Assembly: GCA_023136265.1 (NCBI GenBank) | Contig: JAGLRN010000017.1 | Coordinates: 7,509 to 71,508, forward strand | Origin: Thermoplasmata archaeon | GTDB lineage: Archaea; Thermoplasmatota; Thermoplasmata; RBG-16-68-12; JAGMCJ01 | Direction of reading: 5' to 3' | Length of the DNA: 64,000 nucleotides | Part shown: in pieces, positions 40,490-62,865 of the stretch | Layout: every line of letters begins with the position of its first letter | Numbering within the stretch: position 1 is the first letter of the stretch | The notes under the pieces: model-generated | What the model saw: the letters and a program-made list of their open reading frames with translations, nothing else | What the model was told of the DNA's origin: nothing | The model's database searches: none | Translations under genes and position numbers: made by a program

Positions 40490-41215
40490 ATGGAAGGCAT
40501 GAAATCATACAGAACCTTCGTCAAAGGCCTCGATGAGGAAATCGAAGGGGGCATCCCCCAGGGTCATGTTGTTCTTATCGCGGGTCCTCCAGGGACGATG
40601 AAGTCGAGCTTGGCGTACAGCATGCTCTACCACAACGCCGCCAAGAAGAAGATTCGCGGCATGTACTTCACGCTCGAGCAGAGCAGGAAGAGTCTAGAGT
40701 TCCAGATGTCTCGTCTGAAAATGGATCCGAAGCTGGTCATGGACACTCTCAGGGTACAGGACCTGTCGAGGATAAGAAAAGGAATAGACGAGGTCAGGGG
40801 AAGACCCAGGTTCGGCAGGGAGGTCGAACGCCCCTGGTTGGAGGTTCTGAAGAAGATTCTCGAGGACATGAGAGATACTGAGAAGTACGAACTCCTCGCG
40901 ATAGACTCTCTGCCCATCCTCGAGATAATCTCAAAGCTCAAAGACAGAAGGATTCAGCTCTTCCACTTCTTCGAGTGGCTCAGGGACCTCGGGCTGACCA
41001 CGTTGATCATCACAGAGACATCACCTCAGATAGGTGAGGTCCACGACGAGGACTTCCTCGCCGACGGAGTCATTAATATACTCATGGAGAAGGTCGGAGA
41101 CATAGATGTCTACCGACGGATAAGGATCGTGAAGCTCAGGGGAGTGAACCACAACACTGGGTTCTTCACGCTCGAGTACAAGCAGGACCGGTTCCAGGTC
41201 TCTCAGGTGATCTAG
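40490..41215 (+). CDS. KaiC-like/RecA-superfamily ATPase with a non-canonical P-loop (AGPPGTMKSS)
   Basis: KaiC-domain layout: GGIPQGHVVLIAGPPGTMKS, FTLEQS, Walker B LLAIDSL. The Gly preceding the P-loop Lys is replaced by Met. Confidence 0.8.
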   Translation: MEGMKSYRTFVKGLDEEIEGGIPQGHVVLIAGPPGTMKSSLAYSMLYHNAAKKKIRGMYFTLEQSRKSLEFQMSRLKMDPKLVMDTLRVQDLSRIRKGIDEVRGRPRFGREVERPWLEVLKKILEDMRDTEKYELLAIDSLPILEIISKLKDRRIQLFHFFEWLRDLGLTTLIITETSPQIGEVHDEDFLADGVINILMEKVGDIDVYRRIRIVKLRGVNHNTGFFTLEYKQDRFQVSQVI

Positions 41216-42444
41216 GGCTCCTCGAAGAGATTCATGTATTTTATCACGGCAAGCTCTTCAGGCGTGTAGTCCTTCCTCTTTTCGAGCCCTTCTAGACCCT
41301 TTGTCGAGATCAGCTTGAACGACAGCGGGTGCCCCTCCGTCAAGCTGAAAATCCTCTCAAACTCCTTCTTCTCGATCTTCCTTTTGAGGAGCTTCTTGCA
41401 GCTCCTCTTGTCAAGCCCATCAAGGATGACCTCGCTAAGCGCCCCCCTCGCGAGCAGTTCCCTTTCCTTCGGTATGTCCCCGTTCTCGGAGATTAATACA
41501 ACCTTGGCCTCCGAGCTCCTCTCGACAACCTGGAGGACGTGATAGAATACCGTCGCCAGTTCAGGGGACATCTCCGCAAGGTCGTCGAAGAACAGCATGG
41601 CACGCGTGTCCTTGAGTCTCGTTGCGAGCGCGCCCAAAGCACTCCTCAGGTCTCTTCCCCCGCCTTCGAGATAGTCGCCCAATCCGGGCTTTCCAAGTTG
41701 CCCGAGGAAGGAAGAGAATGCGCCCAGAAGTGTCTCGGGGGTGTCCCACTGCCTGAAGGAGTACCAGAACAGGTTCAATCGGTTCTTGGACGCCGCATAG
41801 ACACGAGCCGCAAGCGATGACTTGCCCATCCCCTCAGCCCCGCGGATAGCCAGTATCTTGCCCTCAGATGCTTTCGTCCAGTCCTCGATCTCCTCCATCT
41901 CCTTCTCTCTTCCGTAGAACGGTTCCGTGAGAACCAGACCCTCCGCGAAGGACAGGAATCTCTCCTTCTTCTCGGAAGGCCTCATCTCCAGGTCCTCTAT
42001 GTTCAGTATGCCGCTGTCGTCCGTCCTACAGATGACCTCCGTTAGCGTGTGGCGAACCCCGACGTGCTTGTCGATGTCGAGGAGAGAGACCTCCTTGATG
42101 GAATCATCGTCCTTCCGTATCTTCACCCTCTTCTTCAGGACCTCCTCTTTGACTCGCTCGGCGAGACTGTATCCGTCCTCCGTGTAACCGTAGACCTTTC
42201 GCTTCCTCAGCTGTCCTCTCACCCTTCCCATGGCCTCGGTGACCAGGTCCTCCTTCTTCAGCTGAGAGATGGCCCTCGAAACGTGATTGACACGGATGCC
42301 CGTGGAGCCAGCGATGCCCTCCTGGGTGAGCCCAGAATGCACGTCCAGGAGATCCCTCGGCTGAGGAGTCTCCCGCAGATGAAGGATTATCTTCTCCTTG
42401 GCGGTCAGGTCATTCCTAGTGAGCCATTCTCCCCTTTTGACCAT
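41212..42444 (-). CDS. wHTH plus archaeal AAA ATPase (Arch_ATPase/PF01637-like) putative regulator
   Basis: N-terminal HTH (LTQEGIAGSTGIRVNHVSRAISQLKKEDLV), Walker A IRGAEGMGKSSLA, Walker B MLFFDDL. Confidence 0.7.
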   Translation of the reverse strand: MVKRGEWLTRNDLTAKEKIILHLRETPQPRDLLDVHSGLTQEGIAGSTGIRVNHVSRAISQLKKEDLVTEAMGRVRGQLRKRKVYGYTEDGYSLAERVKEEVLKKRVKIRKDDDSIKEVSLLDIDKHVGVRHTLTEVICRTDDSGILNIEDLEMRPSEKKERFLSFAEGLVLTEPFYGREKEMEEIEDWTKASEGKILAIRGAEGMGKSSLAARVYAASKNRLNLFWYSFRQWDTPETLLGAFSSFLGQLGKPGLGDYLEGGGRDLRSALGALATRLKDTRAMLFFDDLAEMSPELATVFYHVLQVVERSSEAKVVLISENGDIPKERELLARGALSEVILDGLDKRSCKKLLKRKIEKKEFERIFSLTEGHPLSFKLISTKGLEGLEKRKDYTPEELAVIKYMNLFEEP

Positions 42445-42502: not shown

Positions 42503-44803
42503 CTAGGGTGCATAGAGGTCCACGGTGACGCTGATGAGCGTCTCACCACCGTCATCGTCAGCGACCGTGATGACCAAGCTGTACGATCCCTCGGCCCAGT
42601 AGGAGTGACTGGCGCTTATCCGTACGTCGAATGGGTAGTTGCCATATGGGCTGTTTGGCGGGTCTGGTGCCAGGCCGTCATTGAAGTACGTCTCAACGTC
42701 GCTTGATCCATCGCCCCAGTCAATGGAGACGATTATGTCGTCACTTCCAGGATCGTGAATGTCAGTAGACAGAGAGACCTCGCCAATCGCGATGTTGTTC
42801 CCGTTGTTGATATCGTCAGCCACCGTCTTCACGTCCTCGAACTCGCTCTCGTTCGTCGAGGTCATGAGGATGTCTTCCGCCCACACAAGGATGTCCCCAA
42901 GGGTCGTTTCGTTCTGTCCGGGAGGCCTTGCCTGCGTCGTGAAGTTCAGCTTCCCGGACGCTACGTTCAACCACAGGGCCATCAACTGACCCTGGGCCCT
43001 GGAGTGCACCTCCTCTCCGGACGCCCATTCGAGCACAGTGCAGACATCATCCTCCGTGCTGACGTACGCGAAGAGGTCGGAGTTCGAGCTTATGAAGAGT
43101 ATCAGGTCATCGGTGATGCCCGTGTGGTTGCCGTAGGGTTCTGTGACGGTGCACTGATGGTTCCAGAAACCCTGCGTCCTGGGCTCGAGTACCGTGACAG
43201 AATAGACGAAGTTCCCTACAGTCGGATCCACGTTCTGCACCAGCAGAGGCACGTCCACGGTTTCCGAGTCCCCGTCATCGTCCACGACCGTGACCTGGAT
43301 TCCGAGGTTGAAGTCATCCCCATAGACATGGGAATCTGCGAAGTCGCCCGTTGCATCAGGTTCCTGGTTCTCTTCGGCGACGAGCGGTGCGCTGGTCTGA
43401 CCGTCGTTCCAGTCAATAAGGGCCGTGTGCGTGTCAAGCCATCCAGGGTCGTAGAAGGTCACGTGGACAGTGAACGATTGCCCCTCATCGATGGTCGACG
43501 GCTGGACGGTGATGGTGTCTATTGTCGGTGCGACATTGAAGCACCGGTAGTGCGTGGTTGTCATATCGCTCATCTCGTCATCGGAGACCTCCACGGTGAC
43601 ATCCGTCTCGTAAGGGCCGTCCCCGCAGGTCAGCTGAACAATTGGAAGAGAGGACCAGCTCGTGTCCCAAGCACCGTCGTGATCAAGGTCCCAGCGGTAC
43701 TTGAGCAGGTCGCCGTTCGGGTCGGAGCTACCGCCCGCATCGAGTAGGATGTCCGCCCCTTCATCCACCTCATACGGACCTCCGGCGTTGGCGACAGGCG
43801 GCTTGTTCACTCTGTACACCTCGATCAGCGGTTTCGCTGAATGGGAGTCATTCGACCCATCGTGGTCCACGTCCGCATATGCCCGCGGCAGGAAGTACCT
43901 TCCAGCCAACAACTTGGGAGTAACGAGCGTGTAGCTCAGCAACACCGTGTGGTATGGCGTGGGAGTCAAGTCATCATGGAAGCTAACGTCCGCCGCGGAC
44001 ACATTGACCTTCCATCTGATCGTCTGCGATCCGTCTGGATTGCCCACAACGGCATCAGGTGCCGGAACGATGGACCCCGGAACGTAGGAGTAGCCCATTG
44101 GAATAGTGTCCTCGATCACCGAGTTCACCGCGTGTGGGGGATTCGTGACACCCGGCCCGTAGATGGCCAGATTGGTGACAGTGAGCGTGATGGTGATGTT
44201 GTGGTTTATGGCATCCTCGACGTTCTTCCACAGAGGGGTCTTGCCCACAACGAGCGTAGGATGCAGGTCGAGGTAGTCCCATATCTCGTCGTTCGTGGGG
44301 TTTGGACCCTGAGCGATCTCCTGAAGTGCATAGGGCATTATCTCTCCCCCGAGGAAGATCGTAGCGCCATATTGGGTCCACTGCCTGTGTTCTGTGCACC
44401 ACCACACGATCGACCCTGGAGGCGCACCATCGCCGTACTCGTAGTCTAGGTAAGAATACGGGTCTACGACGGCACTCGTCAGAGCTCCATCCTGAGTCGT
44501 CTGAGGATTCCAAGATTCCAGGGGATGAGGACTCAAGAGCATCATCATCTCGTTTATGTTGACCTTGATGCTTCCGGAATTGGTCACCCTGAACACCGAC
44601 GGATAGCCGTACTGATTGACCTCCGACGTGATTTGGGCCCATCCTTTGGCGTAAGCTTCCCAGATCTTGATCATGTCAGGCATAGGCTGAGGTCCCAATG
44701 GGTCCTCCAGTCTCGCACTCGGTTCGGTTGCGGGTTCCGACACTGCGATCGCGGACGAAAGTAGCAGTATCGCGAACACCGACATCGTGGCGATTTTCTT
44801 CAC
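42503..44803 (-). CDS. Large secreted PKD-domain protein, paralog 3 of 3
   Basis: Signal peptide MKKIATMSVFAILLLSSAIAVSEP. PKD segments (KYRWDLDHDGAWD..., IDWGDGSSDVETYFNDG...ITVADDDGGETL). C-terminal block homologous to paralog 1. Confidence 0.8.
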   Translation of the reverse strand: MKKIATMSVFAILLLSSAIAVSEPATEPSARLEDPLGPQPMPDMIKIWEAYAKGWAQITSEVNQYGYPSVFRVTNSGSIKVNINEMMMLLSPHPLESWNPQTTQDGALTSAVVDPYSYLDYEYGDGAPPGSIVWWCTEHRQWTQYGATIFLGGEIMPYALQEIAQGPNPTNDEIWDYLDLHPTLVVGKTPLWKNVEDAINHNITITLTVTNLAIYGPGVTNPPHAVNSVIEDTIPMGYSYVPGSIVPAPDAVVGNPDGSQTIRWKVNVSAADVSFHDDLTPTPYHTVLLSYTLVTPKLLAGRYFLPRAYADVDHDGSNDSHSAKPLIEVYRVNKPPVANAGGPYEVDEGADILLDAGGSSDPNGDLLKYRWDLDHDGAWDTSWSSLPIVQLTCGDGPYETDVTVEVSDDEMSDMTTTHYRCFNVAPTIDTITVQPSTIDEGQSFTVHVTFYDPGWLDTHTALIDWNDGQTSAPLVAEENQEPDATGDFADSHVYGDDFNLGIQVTVVDDDGDSETVDVPLLVQNVDPTVGNFVYSVTVLEPRTQGFWNHQCTVTEPYGNHTGITDDLILFISSNSDLFAYVSTEDDVCTVLEWASGEEVHSRAQGQLMALWLNVASGKLNFTTQARPPGQNETTLGDILVWAEDILMTSTNESEFEDVKTVADDINNGNNIAIGEVSLSTDIHDPGSDDIIVSIDWGDGSSDVETYFNDGLAPDPPNSPYGNYPFDVRISASHSYWAEGSYSLVITVADDDGGETLISVTVDLYAP

Positions 44804-44873: not shown

Positions 44874-45248
44874 TCAGACCGCCCTCATGAGGACGCGATC
44901 CCCGCTCAAGACTTTTCCTAGCGATAGGGCATCACCCTCCGGTTTGCCGAAGACATTGACGTTCTCGTACGCTCGGGGCTTGTCCGAGACGCTGACCGGG
45001 GTCCTTCCGAAGAACACGGCTATCGCCTTTCCAGCGGGCCAGAAGGCGACCTCTCCCACCTCGATGTCCTGACGACCATGCTCCTCCGGAATCTCCAAGG
45101 CCGTGGCGAAATAGAACTCGTCCCCCCACCTGACCGCCTCTCCCTCGATTGGCATGTTGTCGATGACGATCTCCGCTGTCCGGGGGTTTTCGTCCGTGAT
45201 TTCTCCCTCCAGCGTGATGTCCCCCGCCACCAGCTCGAAGCGGCTCAT
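44874..45248 (-). CDS. Cyclophilin-like superfamily protein (TM1367/DUF369-like)
   Basis: MSRFELVAGDITLEGEI...AVRWGDEFYF...GEVAFWPAGKAIAVFFGRTP...NVFGK pattern. The track ORF is extended to 45362. Confidence 0.5.
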   Translation of the reverse strand: MSRFELVAGDITLEGEITDENPRTAEIVIDNMPIEGEAVRWGDEFYFATALEIPEEHGRQDIEVGEVAFWPAGKAIAVFFGRTPVSVSDKPRAYENVNVFGKPEGDALSLGKVLSGDRVLMRAV

Positions 45249-45250
45249 CG

Positions 45251-45667
45251 TCAAACACCGATGTCGATGAAGGGCGATATTCCCAAGACTTTCACAAGGA
45301 CCAGGTTGAAGATGTACACAAACAGGATGATCAGGAATGTGACTATGAACGATTCCAGCCACTCGTCACCCAGGCTTGCTTCCGAGATTATGAGGAACCT
45401 AACGGTAATCATCAGTGCAAGAAAGGCGACGAGAATCCCTATGACCGCGTCCGTTAGGAGACCGGCGAGTAGCGGGACGATCACGACCGCCATTGCTGCC
45501 GTGATGAAAAGCCTGAGCGCATAGCTCGCGGTCACAACCTCCTCCCTCGTCACGAGCCTTGTCGCGATGTACAGGAACAGCATCACGATGAGCACCGTGA
45601 CGATGAAGAGGACCACGCTCACAATATCCATCGATATCGAGATATCCGCCATGCAGTCCGTAATCAA
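45251..45667 (-). CDS. Hypothetical membrane protein (4 predicted TM helices)
   Basis: Hydrophobic segments throughout. No recognised family. Confidence 0.5.
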   Translation of the reverse strand: MITDCMADISISMDIVSVVLFIVTVLIVMLFLYIATRLVTREEVVTASYALRLFITAAMAVVIVPLLAGLLTDAVIGILVAFLALMITVRFLIISEASLGDEWLESFIVTFLIILFVYIFNLVLVKVLGISPFIDIGV

Positions 45668-45691: not shown

Positions 45692-46837
45692 TCAGAGTCT
45701 GCGGGAGCGCTTCCTCGTATCCAACCGTCTTTCCTTGTCCTCTCTGACGAAATCCTCGATCTGGTCCATCAGACCATCCAGTGCCTTGTGTATGTTCCAG
45801 TCGAAGTGCCGCGCGTAGAACAGTCCCCTGTCGGTCGCCAGTCTTGCCCTCATCGTGTACTTGCTCGTGTCCCCTTTCGAGTGATGCTGCGCGACGTGTA
45901 TATTCAGGATCTTAGGCGAGAGAATCTCGCCTGTCTTGTCTATCGTCTTCTGGATGCGCTCGTACATGGCGTCATAGATCTCGGGCTCCTCCTCAAGCCC
46001 CGTGATCTGGACGAAGACCTCCTCGGCCTTCCCAAATGAGGCGATGAGCTCTATGATGTCCACCTGAGTGACTATGCCTACTGGCTCCCTGTTTTCTGCA
46101 ACAAGGATGCTCGATACGTCCTTCTCTATCATCAGGTCGATCGCCTCGGACAGCCTGGCATCTGGCGGGACAGTGATGGGAGGCGTCCTCATCAGGCTCC
46201 CCACCTCAATCTCGAGGGCCTCCTTCTCGCCGACGACCTCACCTCTCGTCTCGCTCTCCCTCTCTCGGGCGAAGTAGTCCGCTAGGTCCCTTATGCCAAC
46301 GACACCAATGAGGTGCCCGCTGCTCTCGCAGACCGGAACTGACCTCTCATCCAAGTCCTTCATCAGGGCGCGGGCATCGTGCAGGGTGTGCGTCTCCAAC
46401 ACGCACTGCGGTGAGTGGGACATTATGCTGCTCACATCGACCTCGGACAGCATCTTCATCCCGCGCACGGACTCTATCAGGTCGATTCTCGAGATAAAGC
46501 CAAGGAGCTTCCTCTTCGACGTGACTGGAATGCCCCTCGATCCCGTCGACATCATCATCTCCGCGACTTCGGGAACGGAGTCCGTCTCCCCAATCCTGGG
46601 CGGGGCGACCATTATCCTCTCGACCTTCGTGCTCATCGGCAGACTCCTTCTCTTCGTGAGCGTGTTGTAGCTGACGATCCCGACAAGCTTCTTCCTTTCG
46701 ACGACAGGAACCTCGTGAACGCCGTGCCTCTTCATCTTGCCCAGGACCTCGGAGAGGCTGTCCTCTGGAGCGGCCACGACCGGCTCCTTTGACATGACGT
46801 CCTTTGCTTTGAGATCGTTGATATCGGTGTCCTTCAT
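45692..46837 (-). CDS. Four CBS domains fused to a C-terminal ribosome hibernation factor (HPF/RaiA/YfiA)-like domain
   Basis: Four CBS motifs (for example GVHEVPVVERKKLVGIVS, GIPVTSKRKLLGFISRIDL). The C-terminus VQITGLEEEPEIYDAMYERIQKTIDKTGEILSPKILNIHVAQHH...YTMRARLATDRGLFYARHFDWNIHKALDGLMDQIEDFV aligns position by position with E. coli HPF (LNITGNNVEITEAL...LHVNGGEIHASAEGQDMYAAIDGLIDKLARQL). Confidence 0.7.
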   Translation of the reverse strand: MKDTDINDLKAKDVMSKEPVVAAPEDSLSEVLGKMKRHGVHEVPVVERKKLVGIVSYNTLTKRRSLPMSTKVERIMVAPPRIGETDSVPEVAEMMMSTGSRGIPVTSKRKLLGFISRIDLIESVRGMKMLSEVDVSSIMSHSPQCVLETHTLHDARALMKDLDERSVPVCESSGHLIGVVGIRDLADYFARERESETRGEVVGEKEALEIEVGSLMRTPPITVPPDARLSEAIDLMIEKDVSSILVAENREPVGIVTQVDIIELIASFGKAEEVFVQITGLEEEPEIYDAMYERIQKTIDKTGEILSPKILNIHVAQHHSKGDTSKYTMRARLATDRGLFYARHFDWNIHKALDGLMDQIEDFVREDKERRLDTRKRSRRL

Positions 46838-46916
46838 CGTGCTCTCGAGGATAAGGTCTGCCCTCGTTAAAAGGTTTTAGTAAATGGAAGTTATTGTGGT
46901 CTGGAATGGTGATGGC

Positions 46917-47198
46917 ATGGCTGACGAAGCGAGGGCTCACGTAATCTTTCGCGGGAAAGTCCAAGGTGTGTTTTTCCGAGCGAACACGGAGGGCAGGGCT
47001 CGCGAGCTCGGTCTCAAGGGGTGGGTGAGGAACCTTCCTGACGGCTCGGTCGAGTCAGTTTTCGAAGGGCCTCGGGAGGCGGTCAAAAAGGCAATCGAAT
47101 GGTGCAAGAGCTCCCAGCCCCATGCAAGAGTGACCGATGCCGACATTGACTGGGAGGACTACAGGGGAGAGTTCTCCTCCTTCGAGGTCACGTACTAG
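46917..47198 (+). CDS. acyP: Acylphosphatase
   Basis: VIFRGKVQGVFFRANTEGRARELGLKGWVRNLPDGSVE has the canonical VQGVFFR and GWVRN motifs. Confidence 0.8.
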   Translation: MADEARAHVIFRGKVQGVFFRANTEGRARELGLKGWVRNLPDGSVESVFEGPREAVKKAIEWCKSSQPHARVTDADIDWEDYRGEFSSFEVTY

Positions 47199-48028
47199 TC
47201 GAACCTCTCGCCGTAGACGAGCTCTGGGTTGTCCTTGTGAATCTTGAGAACGTCCTCTTTGGAGAATGTGCCGTTCGCGAGGAAGGCCTTCATCCTCTTC
47301 GGGACCGTCGCTGGACCCAACACCGCACCCGGCCTCTTGGGGTCATCCAGGTAGTCCGTCTCCATCAGGAACCTGTTGCCCTGGGAGATCGCCTCCGTGA
47401 TGTTCCTGCGGCTCGAGACGATGGAGGGGAACAGCCCCGAGTTCCTTTCCGTGTCCACGATTGGCGTCGAGAAGTGCTTGACGACCTTCCCCCTCTCCAA
47501 GCCCGACGCGTCCGCCATCAGAGCGAGCTCCTTGAACACCCTGGGCGTGGCGCTCTCGGTGTGCAGGACGACCGGACATCCCACATCCGCGGCGAGCTTC
47601 ATCCCGTAGCTCAGAATCTCGTTCGAAGCATCCAGGATCCCCGAGTCAACCGGGAAGTGCGGTCTCCCGATCTCCCCTATGGCGATGGTCTTCCTCTCCT
47701 CGACCAGATTGGCGGCTGTCTCCATCCCGCTCTTCATTATCTCAATGGCATCGGGCAGAGGCATATGCTCCACAAGACGTAGCAGCTCCACCGGGTAGGG
47801 TCCAACCGTGACGAAGACTCTCAGCCCCGTCCCCCGCCTGACCTTCTCCGCCAAGGACAGGGTCAGCTCGAAGGCGGGTCCATGATCCCTCTCCTTCTCA
47901 ATCCTGTGCTCCTTGTGGGGAAGATGGGCGACGATCAGGTGCGTTCCACCGGCCCGCTCAAAATCCTTCGCCGCCTCTACGTTCCTCCCAGCCGACCTGA
48001 TGTGGAAATGATTGTCCAGAATCTGCAT
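47195..48028 (-). CDS. TatD-family metal-dependent hydrolase
   Basis: MQILDNHFHIRSAG N-terminus with a TIM-barrel hydrolase pattern. Confidence 0.7.
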   Translation of the reverse strand: MQILDNHFHIRSAGRNVEAAKDFERAGGTHLIVAHLPHKEHRIEKERDHGPAFELTLSLAEKVRRGTGLRVFVTVGPYPVELLRLVEHMPLPDAIEIMKSGMETAANLVEERKTIAIGEIGRPHFPVDSGILDASNEILSYGMKLAADVGCPVVLHTESATPRVFKELALMADASGLERGKVVKHFSTPIVDTERNSGLFPSIVSSRRNITEAISQGNRFLMETDYLDDPKRPGAVLGPATVPKRMKAFLANGTFSKEDVLKIHKDNPELVYGERFD

Positions 48029-48040
48029 TCTCTCACTAAG

Positions 48041-48535
48041 TTAGTGAAGAAGGCCGGCCGCGCCGAGCTCCTCGGTGATCTTCTCCACCGCTCTTTCCAC
48101 GTCCTCCGGCTTTCTCGCCCCGGTACAGACGAGCTTGCCAGACCCGAAAAGAAGAACTACCACCTTCGGGTCGTCGATCCTGTACACGAGTCCTGGGAAC
48201 TGTTCGGGCTCATATTCCACCTTCTCCAGTCCGAGGCTGATCGCGATTGCGTTGAGGTTGATCTTCGTCTCAAGATCAGAAGAGGCCACGATGTTCTGGA
48301 CCTCAACGTCCGGATCCGTGTTCACCTTGATTCCAGCGTCCTCGATCTGCTTTGCGACTTTCCTTATGGCCTTGTGAACATCGTCCAGGCTCTTCGCTCC
48401 AGTGCACACAACCTTACCGCTACGGAACAGCAGGGTAGCGGTCTTGGGCTCCTTCAACCTATAGATTAGACCCGGGAACTGCTCGGGCTCGTACTCGGAA
48501 CCGGTGAGCGCCAGAGCAATCGCCTGCAGGTCCAA
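48041..48535 (-). CDS. tbp: TATA-box binding protein. The annotated TTG start truncates the conserved N-terminal strand, so the true start is probably a few codons upstream.
   Basis: Two repeats of [11 protein letters not shown]...P....LLF.SGK.VCTGA. The open frame upstream encodes ...[18 protein letters not shown], the canonical TBP N-terminus, but contains no ATG, GTG or TTG. Confidence 0.85.
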
Positions 48536-48639
48536 CTCCTCTCCAAGAGAAGTCGATGCAACAACATTCTCGATTTTTATTTTTGCCAGTAGAATTCCTC
48601 CCTCTACCCAGACAGCGAAAAACTGCCTCTCTTCTCTGA

Positions 48640-48660
48640 TGGTATTTATATACCCCCTTA
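48640..48660 (-). promoter_or_regulatory. TATA box (minus-strand tatataaata) for tbp
   Basis: The plus strand reads ggtatttatataccc. A GGGAGG SD-like site follows ~45 nt downstream on the minus strand. Confidence 0.45.
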
Positions 48661-48685
48661 TAAAGCTATCGCGGTCGAAAACGTG

Positions 48686-49591
48686 CTAGACGCCGTACGA
48701 GTTCTCCATACCTTTGACCACGGCCAGCAGTGCGGAATTGAGGGGAGTCGGAACGCCTCTGTCGTTCCCCTGGCGGACGATCTCGCCCGTGATGGAATCG
48801 ATCTCCGTTTTTCTCCTCCTCACGACGTCCTGCAGCATGCTCGACATGTTCTGAGCAGTCATCCTCGCGACCCTCTTCGTCCTCTCCACCAAGTCATCCT
48901 TAGGGAGCGGGATCTCACACGTCGTCGCCACCTCAATCGCCTCAAGGCAGACATCTTCCAGCATCCCAGTGACTTCAGGGTTTCCCAGAAGATAACCGTT
49001 CCTTGCTCCGAGGATGGCGGTTAGCGGATTGATGCCAGCGTTCACTATCGCCTTCGCCCATACCTCCCCGCTAAGGTTCTCCGTGACGTCCGTCCTCATC
49101 CCGCAGGCGGTCAGCTCTCCTGCGAGGGAATCGAGGGACTCCCGTGAGACGCCCTTGTAGATGCCCGCAACGGTGTCTCCCATTCCCGCGTGAACGACGT
49201 CTCCTGGCCCCCTCAGCGTGGCCCCGTGACTCGTCGTCCCGCCGATAACGTTGTTCGCGTATCCCCCGATTGTCTCGAGATTGCCGAGGCCGTTCTGCAT
49301 CGTCACGACCGTGCTCAATCCTGGCAGTTTGGCCAACGACTTCATCGCGCTCCTCGTGTCGTAGAACTTCACTGTCAGGAAGACGTAGTCATAGCCCGAG
49401 AGGTCCTCTACCCTCTCCACGGCACTCGGTCTGGCCAGCATCTCAGTGTGACCAGAAATCCTGAGCCCTTCCGCTTGGATGCTGGACATGTGCTCCCTCC
49501 TTCCAACGAGGGTGACCTCATTCCGCTTTGAAAGGAGTGCTCCTATCAGGCTACCGAGTGCTCCCGCCCCGAAGATGAGGACTCTCATCAC
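48686..49591 (-). CDS. panE: 2-dehydropantoate 2-reductase (ketopantoate reductase)
   Basis: GTG start. Rossmann motif VLIFGAGALGSLIGALL. ApbA/PanE family length. Confidence 0.8.
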   Translation of the reverse strand: MMRVLIFGAGALGSLIGALLSKRNEVTLVGRREHMSSIQAEGLRISGHTEMLARPSAVERVEDLSGYDYVFLTVKFYDTRSAMKSLAKLPGLSTVVTMQNGLGNLETIGGYANNVIGGTTSHGATLRGPGDVVHAGMGDTVAGIYKGVSRESLDSLAGELTACGMRTDVTENLSGEVWAKAIVNAGINPLTAILGARNGYLLGNPEVTGMLEDVCLEAIEVATTCEIPLPKDDLVERTKRVARMTAQNMSSMLQDVVRRRKTEIDSITGEIVRQGNDRGVPTPLNSALLAVVKGMENSYGV

Positions 49592-49619
49592 AGCGAGAAT
49601 CGCCTCCAGATTCTTATGT

Positions 49620-50528
49620 TTATCCTCCCTTTCCCGCTGTCGCGGCCAGGTGCGCCTGCCTCAGTGGCTCTGGGATTCTGGTCTTGCACAGGCTCTTCAC
49701 GATTCGCACGGACGACTCAAAGGAGACAAGATGGCCCGGTGATATATAGATCGGTCTCTTGGAGGTCGAACTCCTCAGCGCGTATCCGATAGTCTCGTCA
49801 TTGTGCAGCACCCGCTCGGAATCGCCCACTCTGGAGGGGGTCCTGGTCTTTCCCACGAGGAGGCTCTTGGCCACGCCTATCGTCGGCTTCCCCAGCTTCA
49901 CGCCGACATGGCAGCCAATCCCCGCCCTTCGTGGATGCGAGTACCCATGTCCGTCAATCAGAAGGACGTCCACATCGTTCCTCACCCTCTCGTATGCGGT
50001 TCTGATCGCCGGGTACTCTCTGTAGGTCAGATAGCTGGGGATGTAGGGGAAGTCGATTTCCTTGACCACCACGTCCTTCTCGATGACGTCCAGGTTCTTG
50101 ACGTCGACCACTGCGAATGCACACACGGCACGGTCATCCTCGTACGCGAGGTCGAACCCGCAGACGTTCTTGACATCCTCGAAGTCGTCTTCGAGCACCA
50201 CAACATCCGCAACCTCTCTCTGCTCTTCGCGAAGGAGCTTGAGCGGGCATTCGGCCCGGAGATCGCGGAAGAGCACGTGGTCCAGGTCGCGGATCCTCCC
50301 ATCAATAACAGCGATACCCTCGTTCCTGAGGGACTCGATCTGCCACGGTCTCGCCTTCCCTTGGGCGTTGACAACGCGGTGGGATCGTTGGCGGCTCCTC
50401 GCCAGGAAGTCGGAGACCGCCCTCGAGGCCCTCACGTCCCCAAGGGCTTTCGCCACCTCACCGAACGTTGTCACGCGGCCTTCAGGAATCTGGGAGAGGA
50501 CTTTCTCCAGTTCGTGACTGAACATCAT
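49620..50528 (-). CDS. nfi: Fusion of an alkyltransferase-like (ATL; MGMT fold with Cys replaced by Ser) N-terminal domain and endonuclease V
   Basis: N-terminus IPEGRVTTFGEVAKALGDVRASRAVSDFLARSRQRSHRVVNAQGK follows the Ogt C-domain pattern but has SHRV instead of PCHRV. The C-terminus DVLLIDGHGYSHPRRAGIGCHVGVKLGKPTIGVAKS is EndoV. The start is taken at MMFSHE; the track ORF is extended to 50627. Confidence 0.7.
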   Translation of the reverse strand: MMFSHELEKVLSQIPEGRVTTFGEVAKALGDVRASRAVSDFLARSRQRSHRVVNAQGKARPWQIESLRNEGIAVIDGRIRDLDHVLFRDLRAECPLKLLREEQREVADVVVLEDDFEDVKNVCGFDLAYEDDRAVCAFAVVDVKNLDVIEKDVVVKEIDFPYIPSYLTYREYPAIRTAYERVRNDVDVLLIDGHGYSHPRRAGIGCHVGVKLGKPTIGVAKSLLVGKTRTPSRVGDSERVLHNDETIGYALRSSTSKRPIYISPGHLVSFESSVRIVKSLCKTRIPEPLRQAHLAATAGKGG

Positions 50529-50619
50529 GGAACCGCTGCCCCTGTTGTTTGATATTGGCGGGGCGGTTAAGAAGCTTATCAATAAAATGAAATAGCGACA
50601 CCTCCTTCCCGCGAATTGG

Positions 50620-51915
50620 ATGTCCATACTGCTGAGGGGCGGCTATGTTCTCACACAGAATGATGAGCGGGAGATACTCGCGGGCGATGTCCTCATCGAT
50701 GACGACAGGATAGCCGAGGTCGGGAAGGTCACCGCCGAGGCGGACCGCGAGATCGACTGCAGCGGCTCCGTGGTCATGCCCGGGCTGATAAACAACCACA
50801 ACCACGTGGCGAACACGATCATGAGGGGCTACGCGGACGACGTCCATCTCGAGCAGATGTTGGAGAAGGCCTTCACGGTGGACGACAAGATCACCACCAG
50901 GGACGTGCAGGTCGCCAGTCTGGCGGGTTGCGTAGAGATGATAAGGACAGGCACGACCTCCTTCCTAGACATGTTCTACTGGGAGAACGAGGTCGCCCGG
51001 GCGGTCAGGCAGACCGGGATGAGAGGCTTCCTCGGATGGGTGGTCCTCGACAGGGAGATCTCGACGCAGAAGGGGGACCCGCTCAAGAACTGCGCGGGCT
51101 TCATGCGCGACCTAAAGGGCGAGGAGCTGGTCAGCCCCCTCGTGGCGGTTCACGGCGTGTACACGTGCTCTGAGGAGACGTTCCTCGGTGCCAGGGACCT
51201 AGCCGAGCGGGAGGACGTCCCCGTCCACTTCCATCTCTCTGAGACGAGGAAGGAGGTCTACGGCCACGTCGAGAAGTATGGTCTGCGCCCGCCGGAGTGG
51301 CTGGAGAAGATAGGATTCCTCTGCGAAAGGGGCATCGCCGCGCACTGCGTCTGGCTCACGACAAACGAGATCAGGACGCTCGCCAAGAGAGGGGTCAGCG
51401 CGGTCCACTGTCCCGTGTCCAACATGAAGCTCGCATCGGGCGGGTTCGCCCCGCTCCCCGAGATGTTCGAGAACGGAATGACCGTCTGCCTCGGGACGGA
51501 CAGCCCCCTGTCGAACAACAGCCTCGACATGTTCGAGGAGATGAAGTTCTGCTCGCTCATGCACAAGGCGTCCCGCTGGGATGCCACGGTCGTGCCCGCT
51601 CAGAAGGCCCTTGACATGGCCACCATCGAGGGCGCCCGTGCCCTGGGAATGGAAGAATCGCTCGGGTCGATCGAAATCGGGAAGAAGGCCGACATCATAG
51701 TCGTGGACATGAAGAAGGCCAAGTCAACTCCGCTGTTCAAGTCGAGAATCCCGTCACATCTGGTCTACTCCTGCAACGGGGGCGATGTGTCCCATACAAT
51801 CGTCAACGGGAGGATCGTCATGGAGGGCTCGCGACCTACGAACGTTGACGAGGACGAGGTTGTCAGGAGTCTTCAGGAGCACGCGGACGAGATCTTCGGT
51901 GAGGGCAATGACTAG
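50620..51915 (+). CDS. Amidohydrolase, MTA/SAH/5'-deoxyadenosine deaminase (MtaD/DadD) family
   Basis: MPGLINNHNHVA metal-binding HxH, chlorohydrolase family length. Confidence 0.8.
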   Translation: MSILLRGGYVLTQNDEREILAGDVLIDDDRIAEVGKVTAEADREIDCSGSVVMPGLINNHNHVANTIMRGYADDVHLEQMLEKAFTVDDKITTRDVQVASLAGCVEMIRTGTTSFLDMFYWENEVARAVRQTGMRGFLGWVVLDREISTQKGDPLKNCAGFMRDLKGEELVSPLVAVHGVYTCSEETFLGARDLAEREDVPVHFHLSETRKEVYGHVEKYGLRPPEWLEKIGFLCERGIAAHCVWLTTNEIRTLAKRGVSAVHCPVSNMKLASGGFAPLPEMFENGMTVCLGTDSPLSNNSLDMFEEMKFCSLMHKASRWDATVVPAQKALDMATIEGARALGMEESLGSIEIGKKADIIVVDMKKAKSTPLFKSRIPSHLVYSCNGGDVSHTIVNGRIVMEGSRPTNVDEDEVVRSLQEHADEIFGEGND

Positions 51916-62727: not shown

Positions 62728-62812
62728 GCCGAGGTGGCCCAGTCTGGTAAGGCGCGAGCCTGGAGAGCTCGTGGTGCTTTGCACCTCGGGAGTTCGAATC
62801 TCCCCCTCGGCG
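62728..62812 (+). tRNA. tRNA-Ser (GGA)
   Basis: Acceptor gccgagg/cctcggc. Anticodon arm cgagc-ctGGAga-gctcg. Long variable arm ggtgc/gcacc. T-arm gggag-ttcgaat-ctccc. Confidence 0.7.
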
Positions 62813-62865
62813 CTTTTCTACTAGTAAATATCAAATACGGGTAATACGATAGGCCTTCGATAAGA

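What the first reader, a model, noticed from the sequence alone, without database searches (positions are those of the whole stretch)
45692..46837. Bacterial-type ribosome hibernation factor (HPF/RaiA) domain in an archaeon, fused to four CBS domains
The C-terminal 100 aa align position by position with E. coli HPF (ITG...NIHV..H...Y.ARHFDW.IHKALDGLMDQIE versus LNITG...LHVNGGEIHA...DMYAAIDGLIDKLARQL). HPF/RaiA is essentially a bacterial and plastid family. CBS domains sense adenine nucleotides, so the fusion suggests energy-charge-gated ribosome binding, or an RNA-binding stress factor borrowed from bacteria.
Basis: partly seen in the sequence, partly recalled or inferred. Interest (0 to 1): 0.55.

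Follow-up and report, generated by a model that had tools for sequence, protein, structure and literature searches.

The report
Archaeal HibA/AHA ribosome hibernation factor

Summary
The ORF at 45692..46837 (-) is real and encodes 381 aa. It has four CBS domains (Pfam E 8.7e-50) followed by a ~110-aa C-terminal domain.

- Alone, it scores just under Pfam's PF02482 cut-off (23.3 vs 23.7 bits).
- 18 of 23 orthologs match PF02482.
- A family profile hits almost only HPF/RaiA/YfiA chains in the PDB.

The whole protein aligns colinearly (E 3.9e-24, 26% identity) with Pyrococcus abyssi HibA (PDB 9SR9 chain H). That protein was solved on the ribosome and inhibits translation in vitro; knockouts of its orthologs in Thermococcus barophilus and Haloferax volcanii (AHA) impair recovery from stationary phase. 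The long CBS3 loop that enters the peptidyl-transferase centre and the ribose-binding Asp residues of CBS3 and CBS4 are conserved.

The protein is 100% identical to a GenBank Thermoplasmata MAG protein. JGI already labels close orthologs [quoted passage not shown].

The finding is already known. HPF is no longer "essentially bacterial", because HibA occurs in about 47% of archaeal genomes.

The parts
45692..46837 (-). Complete CDS (381 aa plus stop codon 45692-45694) of a HibA/AHA-family ribosome hibernation factor.
   Evidence: The ORF is listed. It aligns over its full length with PDB 9SR9_H (P. abyssi HibA), E 3.9e-24, query 27-375 to chain 22-379. It is 100% identical to GenBank MCJ2669971.1, MCK4948900.1 and MEE9507094.1.
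46652..46813 (-). CBS1 (about residues 9-62). The ribose-binding position is Asn58, not Asp, so this is probably not a nucleotide site.
   Evidence: Pfam CBS x4, AF2 secondary structure, column counts.
46469..46630 (-). CBS2 (about residues 70-123), motif GFISRID with Asp119.
   Evidence: D119 is kept in 32 of 39 homologs.
46277..46441 (-). CBS3 (about residues 133-187), motif GVVGIRD with Asp184.
   Evidence: D184 is kept in 31 of 39 homologs. CBS3/CBS4 is the AMP/ATP site in HibA and AHA.
46208..46276 (-). Extended loop between CBS3 and CBS4 (residues 188-210, ...RGEVVGEKEA...). It is the counterpart of the HibA 'PTC loop' (Pa residues 190-207) and AHA 'loop 3', which insert into the peptidyl-transferase centre.
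   Evidence: It is the only low-confidence segment of the model (pLDDT below 50 at 193-206). It aligns with YGELAGEKIPP of 9SR9_H. The G199-x3-G203-E-K motif is kept in about 30 of 39 homologs. Its function comes from the papers.
46037..46207 (-). CBS4 (about residues 211-267), motif GIVTQVD with the invariant Asp260.
   Evidence: Best Pfam CBS stretch is 212-266. D260 is kept in 39 of 39 homologs.
45695..46030 (-). HPF/RaiA-like domain (residues 270-381): beta 275-279, alpha 285-303, beta 308-321, beta 324-335, beta 338-346, then a long alpha 349-380 ending in a basic tail (RRLDTRKRSRRL). It is predicted to occupy the 30S mRNA/tRNA channel.
   Evidence: PF02482 at 20.7 and 23.3 bits. Profile against the PDB. 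AF2 models. Foldseek top 37 hits are all HPF/RaiA. The motif R-x-R-[LV]-x-TDRG-x-F-x-AR-x3-W is shared with P. abyssi HibA.
46865..46883 (-). AT-rich stretch (TTTACTAAAACCTTTTAAC) in the 46-nt divergent intergenic region, 28-46 nt upstream of the ATG. It is a candidate archaeal TATA/BRE region. This is inference only.
   Evidence: Read directly from the sequence. The sigma-70 scan is irrelevant for archaea. There is no experimental or comparative test.

Best explanation
The gene encodes the Thermoplasmata ortholog of the archaeal ribosome hibernation factor HibA (also called AHA).

Mechanism, by homology to the solved P. abyssi and H. volcanii complexes:
- The C-terminal HPF/RaiA-like domain binds the small subunit in the mRNA/tRNA channel at the decoding centre. 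This blocks the A and P sites, and its basic C-terminal helix and tail run toward the mRNA exit channel.
- The N-terminal four-CBS disc sits on the large subunit over the tRNA sites. It can insert its long CBS3 loop into the peptidyl-transferase centre.
- By bridging both subunits the protein keeps 70S ribosomes assembled, silent and protected from degradation during starvation or stress.
- Adenine nucleotides (AMP preferred) bind at the CBS3/CBS4 interface and may tune binding to the cell's energy state.

Shown here: domain architecture, fold, colinear homology to the solved factor, and conservation of the loop motif and ribose-binding aspartates.

Inferred from orthologs: ribosome binding, translation inhibition, nucleotide binding and physiological role.
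For: - Four CBS domains plus a PF02482-like C-terminus.
- Full-length colinear match to ribosome-bound HibA 9SR9_H (E 3.9e-24; 26% identity over 348 positions, 26% in the CBS module and 24.5% in the HPF-like domain), and to a second solved chain of the same architecture, 9L96_a (E 1.6e-22).
- The CBS module alone is closest to HibA: 64 bits in one colinear stretch, against about 48 bits in fragments for the Sri proteins and 35 for Dri.
- The C-terminal profile hits HPF/RaiA/YfiA almost exclusively.
- Foldseek on the isolated domain: the top 37 hits are all HPF/RaiA/pY, TM up to 0.77. On the full model, the CBS tetrad matches Sri, Dri, MJ1225 and AMPK-gamma, as reported for AHA.
- The PTC-loop motif and D184/D260 are conserved.
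- About 200 homologs of the same length and architecture occur in Thermoplasmata and Thermoplasmatota. Several carry precomputed PF02482 hits, and several are named RaiA by JGI.
- Experimental basis in orthologs: PMC13324472 and PMC12934967.
Against: - There is no direct evidence for this protein or organism, which is an uncultured MAG lineage.
- This single sequence falls 0.4-3 bits short of Pfam's PF02482 gathering score.
- Identity to the characterised orthologs is only about 26%.
- Genomic context gives no ribosome-related support. The neighbours are TBP, TatD, acylphosphatase, a cyclophilin-like protein and a PKD protein.
- The regulatory role of nucleotides is unsettled even for the characterised orthologs.
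Confidence: 0.9

Rival explanations
1. It is a CBS-tetrad regulatory protein that works away from the ribosome, for example as a transcription regulator like the CM-3 family protein HhpR or as a metabolic sensor like AMPK-gamma or MJ1225. On this reading the HPF-like domain has been re-used for another nucleic-acid or protein partner.
For: CBS tetrads have several functions. The full-model fold search also hits MJ1225 and AMPK-gamma. NCBIfam HhpR gives a partial match of 50 bits.
Against: The HhpR score of 50 is far below its cut-off of 520. The CBS module is closest to HibA. The HPF-like domain and the PTC-loop motif are conserved across the family. HibA's translation inhibition requires exactly this C-terminal domain.
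Confidence: 0.04
2. It is a small-subunit-only blocker of the Sri/ARC type. These are CBS-tetrad proteins with an occlusion element that bind in tandem on the 30S, rather than a factor that bridges both subunits.
For: Sri proteins are the best Foldseek hits of the full model (9znf_4, E 1.7e-20). They are archaeal CBS-tetrad hibernation factors.
Against: Those hits cover only the CBS tetrad (about 263 of 381 residues). Sri/ARC proteins lack an HPF domain. At the sequence level the protein is closer to HibA. Published surveys report that Sri and HibA/AHA are largely mutually exclusive.
Confidence: 0.03
3. It is a recent, lineage-specific acquisition of a bacterial HPF gene that fused to a resident CBS protein.
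For: The domain is clearly homologous to bacterial HPF/RaiA. One paper favours an early bacterial origin of the archaeal domain.
Against: The same colinear fusion is present in Thermococcales and in a haloarchaeal-like chain, and in about 47% of archaea. The Thermoplasmatota profile scores archaeal HibA (28.1 bits) no lower than the best bacterial HPF (26.5 bits). Archaeal-type features are present, namely a long terminal helix and long beta2/beta3 strands. The AHA phylogeny finds no cross-domain intermixing.
Confidence: 0.02
4. The C-terminal resemblance to HPF is chance or composition-driven, and the domain has an unrelated fold.
For: The Pfam score is sub-threshold. Single-sequence PDB hits are not significant. 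Pairwise BLASTP covers only 34 aa.
Against: Profile-level and fold-level evidence is unanimous.
Confidence: 0.01

Closest known systems
HibA (Pyrococcus abyssi Q9UYR4, Thermococcus barophilus F0LKU5; PDB 9SR9-9SRF, 9T7H; Madru et al., Nat Commun 2026, PMC13324472)
   Same: - The architecture is the same: a four-CBS module followed by an HPF/RaiA-like domain.
- The length is similar (381 vs 392 aa).
- The alignment is colinear over both modules (E 3.9e-24).
- There is a long loop in CBS3 with a G-x3-GEK motif.
- The C-terminal domain shares the R-x-R-x-x-TDRG-x-F-x-AR-x3-W motif.
- It has a long terminal helix.
   Different: - Identity is only about 26%.
- The host is an uncultured mesophile-like Thermoplasmata MAG (56% GC) rather than a hyperthermophile.
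- No experimental data exist for it.
- Family-invariant P308 and H314 of the Thermoplasmatota set are not shared with the Pyrococcus protein.
AHA (Haloferax volcanii HVO_2384; Souza et al., bioRxiv 2026, PMC12934967)
   Same: It belongs to the same family under another name. It has a CBS tetrad with AMP sites at CBS3/CBS4, loop 3 in the PTC, and the HPF domain on the 30S. Asp184 and Asp260 of the window protein fit retained sites 3 and 4.
   Different: The window protein is not acidic and halophile-like (pI 5.8 overall, 7.2 for the C-terminal domain). The number of bound nucleotides is unknown; it is one in HibA and two in AHA.
Bacterial HPF / RaiA (YfiA, pY) / plastid PSRP1 (Pfam PF02482)
   Same: [quoted passage not shown] By homology it uses the same 30S binding site.
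   Different: It is fused to an N-terminal CBS tetrad that binds the 50S. The beta2/beta3 strands and the terminal helix are longer. It has no long-HPF C-terminal dimerisation domain, so no 100S formation is expected. The Pfam score is just below the gathering threshold.
SriA-D / ARC-A, ARC-P (Methanosarcina, Methanolobus) and Dri (Thermoproteota)
   Same: They are archaeal CBS-tetrad hibernation factors, and they are structurally the best matches for the N-terminal module. They also bind AMP/ATP.
   Different: They have no HPF domain. Sri/ARC act as pairs on the 30S, and Dri has two CBS tetrads. Their phyletic distribution is largely exclusive with HibA.
AMPK gamma subunit / MJ1225
   Same: The four-CBS disc fold is the same, with adenine-nucleotide sites 3 and 4 (PMC12934967).
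   Different: They are kinase regulatory subunits, not ribosome factors, and they have no HPF domain.

Membership tests
HibA/AHA archaeal hibernation factors | N-terminal module of four tandem CBS domains forming a disc (two Bateman modules) | tested here: met
   Pfam CBS with 4 stretches, E 8.7e-50. The AF2 model has pLDDT 86 and pTM 0.80. The fold matches CBS tetrads.
HibA/AHA archaeal hibernation factors | [quoted passage not shown] | tested here: met
   DSSP topology. The Foldseek top 37 hits are all HPF/RaiA/pY. Profile against the PDB.
HibA/AHA archaeal hibernation factors | Colinear full-length homology to a structurally characterised member | tested here: met
   9SR9_H E 3.9e-24, query 27-375 to chain 22-379, 26% identity. 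9SR9 is identified as HibA-ATP in the paper's data statement.
HibA/AHA archaeal hibernation factors | Extended loop in CBS3 (PTC loop / loop 3) | tested here: met
   Residues 188-210 form a flexible loop (pLDDT below 50 at 193-206). It aligns to the Pa-HibA loop. The G-x3-GEK motif is conserved.
HibA/AHA archaeal hibernation factors | Archaeal-type elaborations of the HPF domain (insertions, longer terminal helix) | tested here: met
   The terminal helix 349-380 is 32 residues long, and beta2 and beta3 are 12-14 residues. The domain is 112 aa, against 95 aa for E. coli HPF. The exact insertion positions of the paper's Fig. 2b were not superposed.
HibA/AHA archaeal hibernation factors | Adenine-nucleotide binding at the CBS3/CBS4 interface | not testable with these tools
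   Sequence proxy only: ribose-binding Asp184 (31/39) and Asp260 (39/39) are retained. ITC and cryo-EM data exist only for orthologs.
HibA/AHA archaeal hibernation factors | Binds 70S/30S ribosomes, inhibits translation, and preserves ribosomes in stationary phase | not testable with these tools
   Shown for P. abyssi and T. barophilus HibA and for H. volcanii AHA. Nothing is known for this MAG protein.
Pfam PF02482 Ribosomal_S30AE (HPF/RaiA) | Score at or above the curated gathering threshold (23.7 bits) | tested here: inconclusive
   The scores are 20.7 bits (whole protein) and 23.3 bits (isolated domain), both just below the threshold. However, 18 of 23 orthologs match (best E 1.7e-8), and several homologs carry precomputed PF02482 hits.
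Bacterial long HPF | C-terminal dimerisation domain that drives 100S formation | tested here: not met
   The protein ends about 30 residues after alpha2 begins, with no further domain. The window protein is not a long HPF.
Sri/ARC CBS-tetrad factors | CBS tetrad with an occlusion element and no HPF domain | tested here: not met
   An HPF-like domain is present. Sequence scores to the Sri chains are lower and fragmented.
HhpR (CM-3) transcription regulator | NCBIfam NF053603 at or above its cut-off of 520 | tested here: not met
   50 bits.

The most novel reading that the evidence does not exclude
In this Thermoplasmata clade the HibA gene sits in a conserved block (TBP, TatD, divergent acylphosphatase, HibA). 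In the closest relatives a 138-aa multi-pass membrane ORF and a cyclophilin-like gene follow it on the same strand. The most novel reading not excluded is a lineage-specific coupling of ribosome hibernation to a membrane or chaperone partner, or co-regulation with acylphosphatase through a shared 46-nt bidirectional promoter. Separately, the sequence could serve as a mesophilic Thermoplasmata data point in the still-open question of whether the archaeal HPF domain came from LUCA or from an ancient transfer.
Probability: 0.04. Interest if true: 0.35.

Novelty: already known. Interest (0 to 1): 0.12.

Why it matters
It matters little as a discovery. The family, its structure on the ribosome, its nucleotide binding, its knockout phenotypes and its distribution across Archaea were published in 2025-2026 under the names HibA and AHA. 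JGI's pipeline already tags close orthologs as RaiA-like.

The practical value is in annotation. GenBank calls this protein, and most of its roughly 200 Thermoplasmatota homologs, only 'CBS domain-containing protein' (one is even called 'HPP family protein'), and Pfam's PF02482 model narrowly misses many of them. These entries can be renamed as HibA/AHA-family ribosome hibernation factors.

The result also shows that the first-stage reader can recognise a remote HPF domain from raw sequence.

Tried and rejected
- Alignment-based scan of genome contigs with A1 failed because no stretch was conserved enough. The single-protein scan found only 7 close Thermoplasmata loci.
- The fold search with the full-length model was dominated by CBS tetrads and said nothing about the C-terminus. 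I therefore modelled and searched the domain alone.
- Single-sequence phmmer of the C-terminal domain against the PDB was not significant, and BLASTP to E. coli HPF covered only 34 aa. The homology rests on profile and fold evidence.
- I looked for the paper behind PDB 9L96, a 406-aa acidic CBS protein of the same architecture. None is in the library. The ARC preprint turned out to describe the Sri-like family, which has no HPF domain.
- I looked for paralogs or a stand-alone HPF in the window with family HMMs and found none.
- Operon or functional-context idea: the downstream membrane ORF and cyclophilin-like gene are kept only in close relatives (80-92% identity). They are lost or rearranged at 40-46% identity. 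I rejected this as evidence of a functional link.
- The GC-skew switch near 50 kb was considered as a replication origin. It simply coincides with the change of coding strand at 50.6 kb, so I rejected that reading.
- The bacterial sigma-70 and terminator scan is uninformative for an archaeon.

Full report
**1. Observation**

An ATG-initiated ORF of 381 aa lies exactly at 45692..46837 on the minus strand. Pfam finds four CBS stretches (PF00571, E 8.7e-50). It also finds one match to PF02482 (Ribosomal_S30AE, the HPF/RaiA family) over residues 286-371, with E 7e-4 and 20.7 bits. That is below the gathering score of 23.7. The isolated C-terminal 112 residues score 23.3 bits. I took it to the profile and fold levels.

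**2. Is the C-terminal domain really HPF-like?**

I collected homologs, aligned 39 full-length sequences (A1) and aligned 23 C-terminal domains (A2).
- Of the 23 domains, 18 match PF02482 individually, with a best E of 1.7e-8.
- An HMM of A2 searched against all PDB sequences returns 24 hits. 23 of them are HPF, RaiA/YfiA/protein Y or S30, or one of the two archaeal CBS-HPF chains 9SR9_H and 9L96_a.
- AlphaFold2 on A1 gives a confident model (pLDDT 86.3, pTM 0.80). Its C-terminal domain runs beta 275-279, alpha 285-303, beta 308-321, beta 324-335, beta 338-346, alpha 349-380.
- Foldseek of the isolated domain against the PDB gives 37 consecutive top hits that are all HPF, RaiA, YfiA, pY, MPY or RafH. 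TM-scores are 0.53-0.77 and rmsd is 2.0-4.7 A. The first unrelated fold appears at rank 38 with E above 5e-3.

One correction is needed. Pairwise BLASTP to E. coli HPF aligns only 34 residues at 29% identity, and single-sequence phmmer is not significant. 'Position by position over 100 aa' therefore overstates what one sequence shows. The helix-alpha2 match (ALDGLMDQIE vs AIDGLIDKLA) is in the correct register.

**3. What it is**

phmmer of the whole protein against the PDB gives two full-length hits.
- 9SR9_H is 392 aa and deposited as 'Dehydrogenase'. It matches with E 3.9e-24, query 27-375 to chain 22-379.
- 9L96_a is 406 aa and deposited as 'CBS domain-containing protein'. It matches with E 1.6e-22.

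The data statement of Madru et al. (Nat Commun 2026, PMC13324472) identifies 9SR9-9SRF and 9T7H as Pyrococcus abyssi 70S-HibA complexes. Identity to HibA is 26% over 348 aligned positions, spread evenly: 26.4% in the CBS module and 24.5% in the HPF-like domain.

The CBS module alone is also closest to HibA. It scores 64 bits in a single colinear stretch. It scores 60 bits for 9L96_a, about 48 bits in fragments for SriA-D, and 35 bits for Dri. NCBIfam's HhpR model scores 50 against a cut-off of 520.

Foldseek of the full model finds the CBS tetrads of Sri, Dri, MJ1225 and AMPK-gamma. This is the same result reported for H. volcanii AHA.

**4. Family signatures**

- PTC loop. HibA has a 'PTC loop' (Pa residues 190-207) in CBS3 that surrounds the universally conserved A2602-equivalent adenine. 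In the window protein the corresponding segment 188-210 is the only disordered part of the model (pLDDT below 50 at 193-206). It aligns to the HibA loop (RGEVVGEK vs YGELAGEK) and carries a G199-x3-G203-E-K motif kept in about 30 of 39 homologs.
- Ribose-binding aspartates. The Asp of the G-h-h-[ST]-x-x-D motif is invariant in CBS4 (D260, 39/39) and frequent in CBS3 (D184, 31/39) and CBS2 (D119, 32/39). It is replaced by Asn58 in CBS1. This fits the AMP/ATP site at the CBS3/CBS4 interface seen in HibA (one nucleotide; Kd 12, 65 and 113 uM for AMP, ADP and ATP) and in AHA (two AMP).
- C-terminal domain. It shares R-x-R-[LV]-x-TDRG-x-F-x-AR-x3-W with Pa-HibA. [quoted passage not shown]

**5. Mechanism**

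This rests on homology; none of it is shown for this protein.
- The HPF-like domain occupies the 30S mRNA/tRNA channel.
- The CBS disc occupies tRNA sites on the 50S. In P. abyssi it takes three positions: the PTC, uL5 and the L1 stalk.
- The covalent link keeps the 70S together and inactive.

In orthologs, HibA inhibits in vitro translation only when the C-terminal domain is present. T. barophilus lacking hibA shows a doubled lag and about 60% fewer 70S ribosomes in stationary phase. H. volcanii lacking AHA loses viability and 32 ribosomal proteins in stationary phase.

Nucleotide gating remains a hypothesis. AMP and ATP barely changed HibA's conformational classes in vitro. The AHA authors propose that AMP stabilises loop 3.

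**6. Provenance and distribution**

The protein is 100% identical to GenBank MCJ2669971.1, MCK4948900.1 and MEE9507094.1, annotated 'MAG: CBS domain-containing protein [Thermoplasmata archaeon]'. Related loci all come from uncultured Thermoplasmata or Thermoplasmatota MAGs. The window is clearly archaeal, since it carries a TBP gene.

JGI annotates close orthologs as 'CBS domain-containing protein/ribosome-associated translation inhibitor RaiA'. The fusion was therefore visible to automated pipelines.

HibA is reported in 47% of 4,026 archaeal genomes, a database that includes hundreds of Thermoplasmatota. AHA is reported in 2,723 of 6,968 archaeal species. The premise that HPF is 'essentially bacterial and plastid' is outdated.

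The origin of the domain is contested. Madru et al. prefer an early transfer from Bacteria, and Souza et al. prefer inheritance from LUCA. My data only exclude a recent transfer. The Thermoplasmatota profile scores archaeal HibA (28.1 bits) at least as high as the best bacterial HPF (26.5 bits), and the fusion is colinear across distant archaeal phyla.

**7. Context**

The neighbours are a cyclophilin-like protein, a 138-aa membrane ORF without Pfam hits, a PKD-domain protein, a divergent acylphosphatase, TatD, TBP, PanE and an EndoV fusion. The window holds no paralog and no stand-alone HPF.

The upstream block EndoV-PanE-TBP-TatD-acylphosphatase-HibA persists in orthologs of 41-46% identity (L008 and L010). 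It is absent in a 40% ortholog from another clade (L009). The downstream membrane ORF is kept only in close relatives. Nothing in the context bears on function.

**8. Verdict**

The object is a typical member of a family already characterised structurally, biochemically and genetically. Novelty: already known. Interest: low (0.12). The remaining value is in correcting annotation.

Noticed in passing
window 49620..50627 (-): A 335-aa protein combines an Endonuclease V domain (residues 138-326) with the DNA-binding domain of O6-methylguanine-DNA methyltransferase (residues 36-92). Where active alkyltransferases have PCHRVV, this one reads RSHRVV, so the catalytic Cys is replaced by Ser. It may be an alkyltransferase-like (ATL) damage-recognition module fused to EndoV. 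From memory, AGT-EndoV fusions are known in Thermoplasmatales.
   Followed up: partly
window 46884..50627; L008 1-5143; L010 1-5152: The gene order EndoV, PanE, TBP, TatD, divergent acylphosphatase, HibA is conserved in Thermoplasmata relatives whose HibA is only 41-46% identical. The acylphosphatase and HibA genes share a very short divergent intergenic region (46 nt in the window).
   Followed up: partly
window 45251..45667 (-) and 44874..45362 (-): A 138-aa multi-pass membrane ORF without any Pfam hit starts 24 nt downstream of the HibA stop on the same strand. It is conserved at 75-93% in close relatives. The 162-aa ORF call for the cyclophilin-like gene overlaps it. The Pfam match begins at residue 42, so the real start is probably Met38 (MSRFELV...), giving about 44874..45251.
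   Followed up: partly
window 42503..44803 (-) and 41212..42444 (-): A 766-aa secreted-looking protein with a PKD domain sits next to a 410-aa protein that combines an HTH with an archaeal ATPase_2/AAA_16 (STAND-like) NTPase domain. The pair recurs next to HibA in L008.
   Followed up: no
window ~50,600: GC skew and AT skew flip from negative (44-50 kb) to strongly positive (52-64 kb). This coincides with a switch from minus-strand to plus-strand genes at 50620. It reflects coding-strand bias, so there is no need to invoke a replication origin.
   Followed up: yes
PDB 9L96_a (also 9L98, 9L9C, 9L9V): This is a second solved chain with the same CBS-tetrad plus HPF-like architecture. It is 406 aa, very acidic and deposited as 'CBS domain-containing protein'. 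No paper citing it is in the searchable library. It is presumably a haloarchaeal ribosome complex, independent of the HibA and AHA papers.
   Followed up: partly
homolog list: GenBank names for this family are uninformative or wrong: 'CBS domain-containing protein', and 'HPP family protein' for P0024. Only about 10 of the 120 listed homologs carry a precomputed PF02482 hit, so the Pfam model under-detects the archaeal branch.
   Followed up: partly
window 62728..62813 (+): tRNA-Ser(GGA) is the only RNA gene detected in the window.
   Followed up: no
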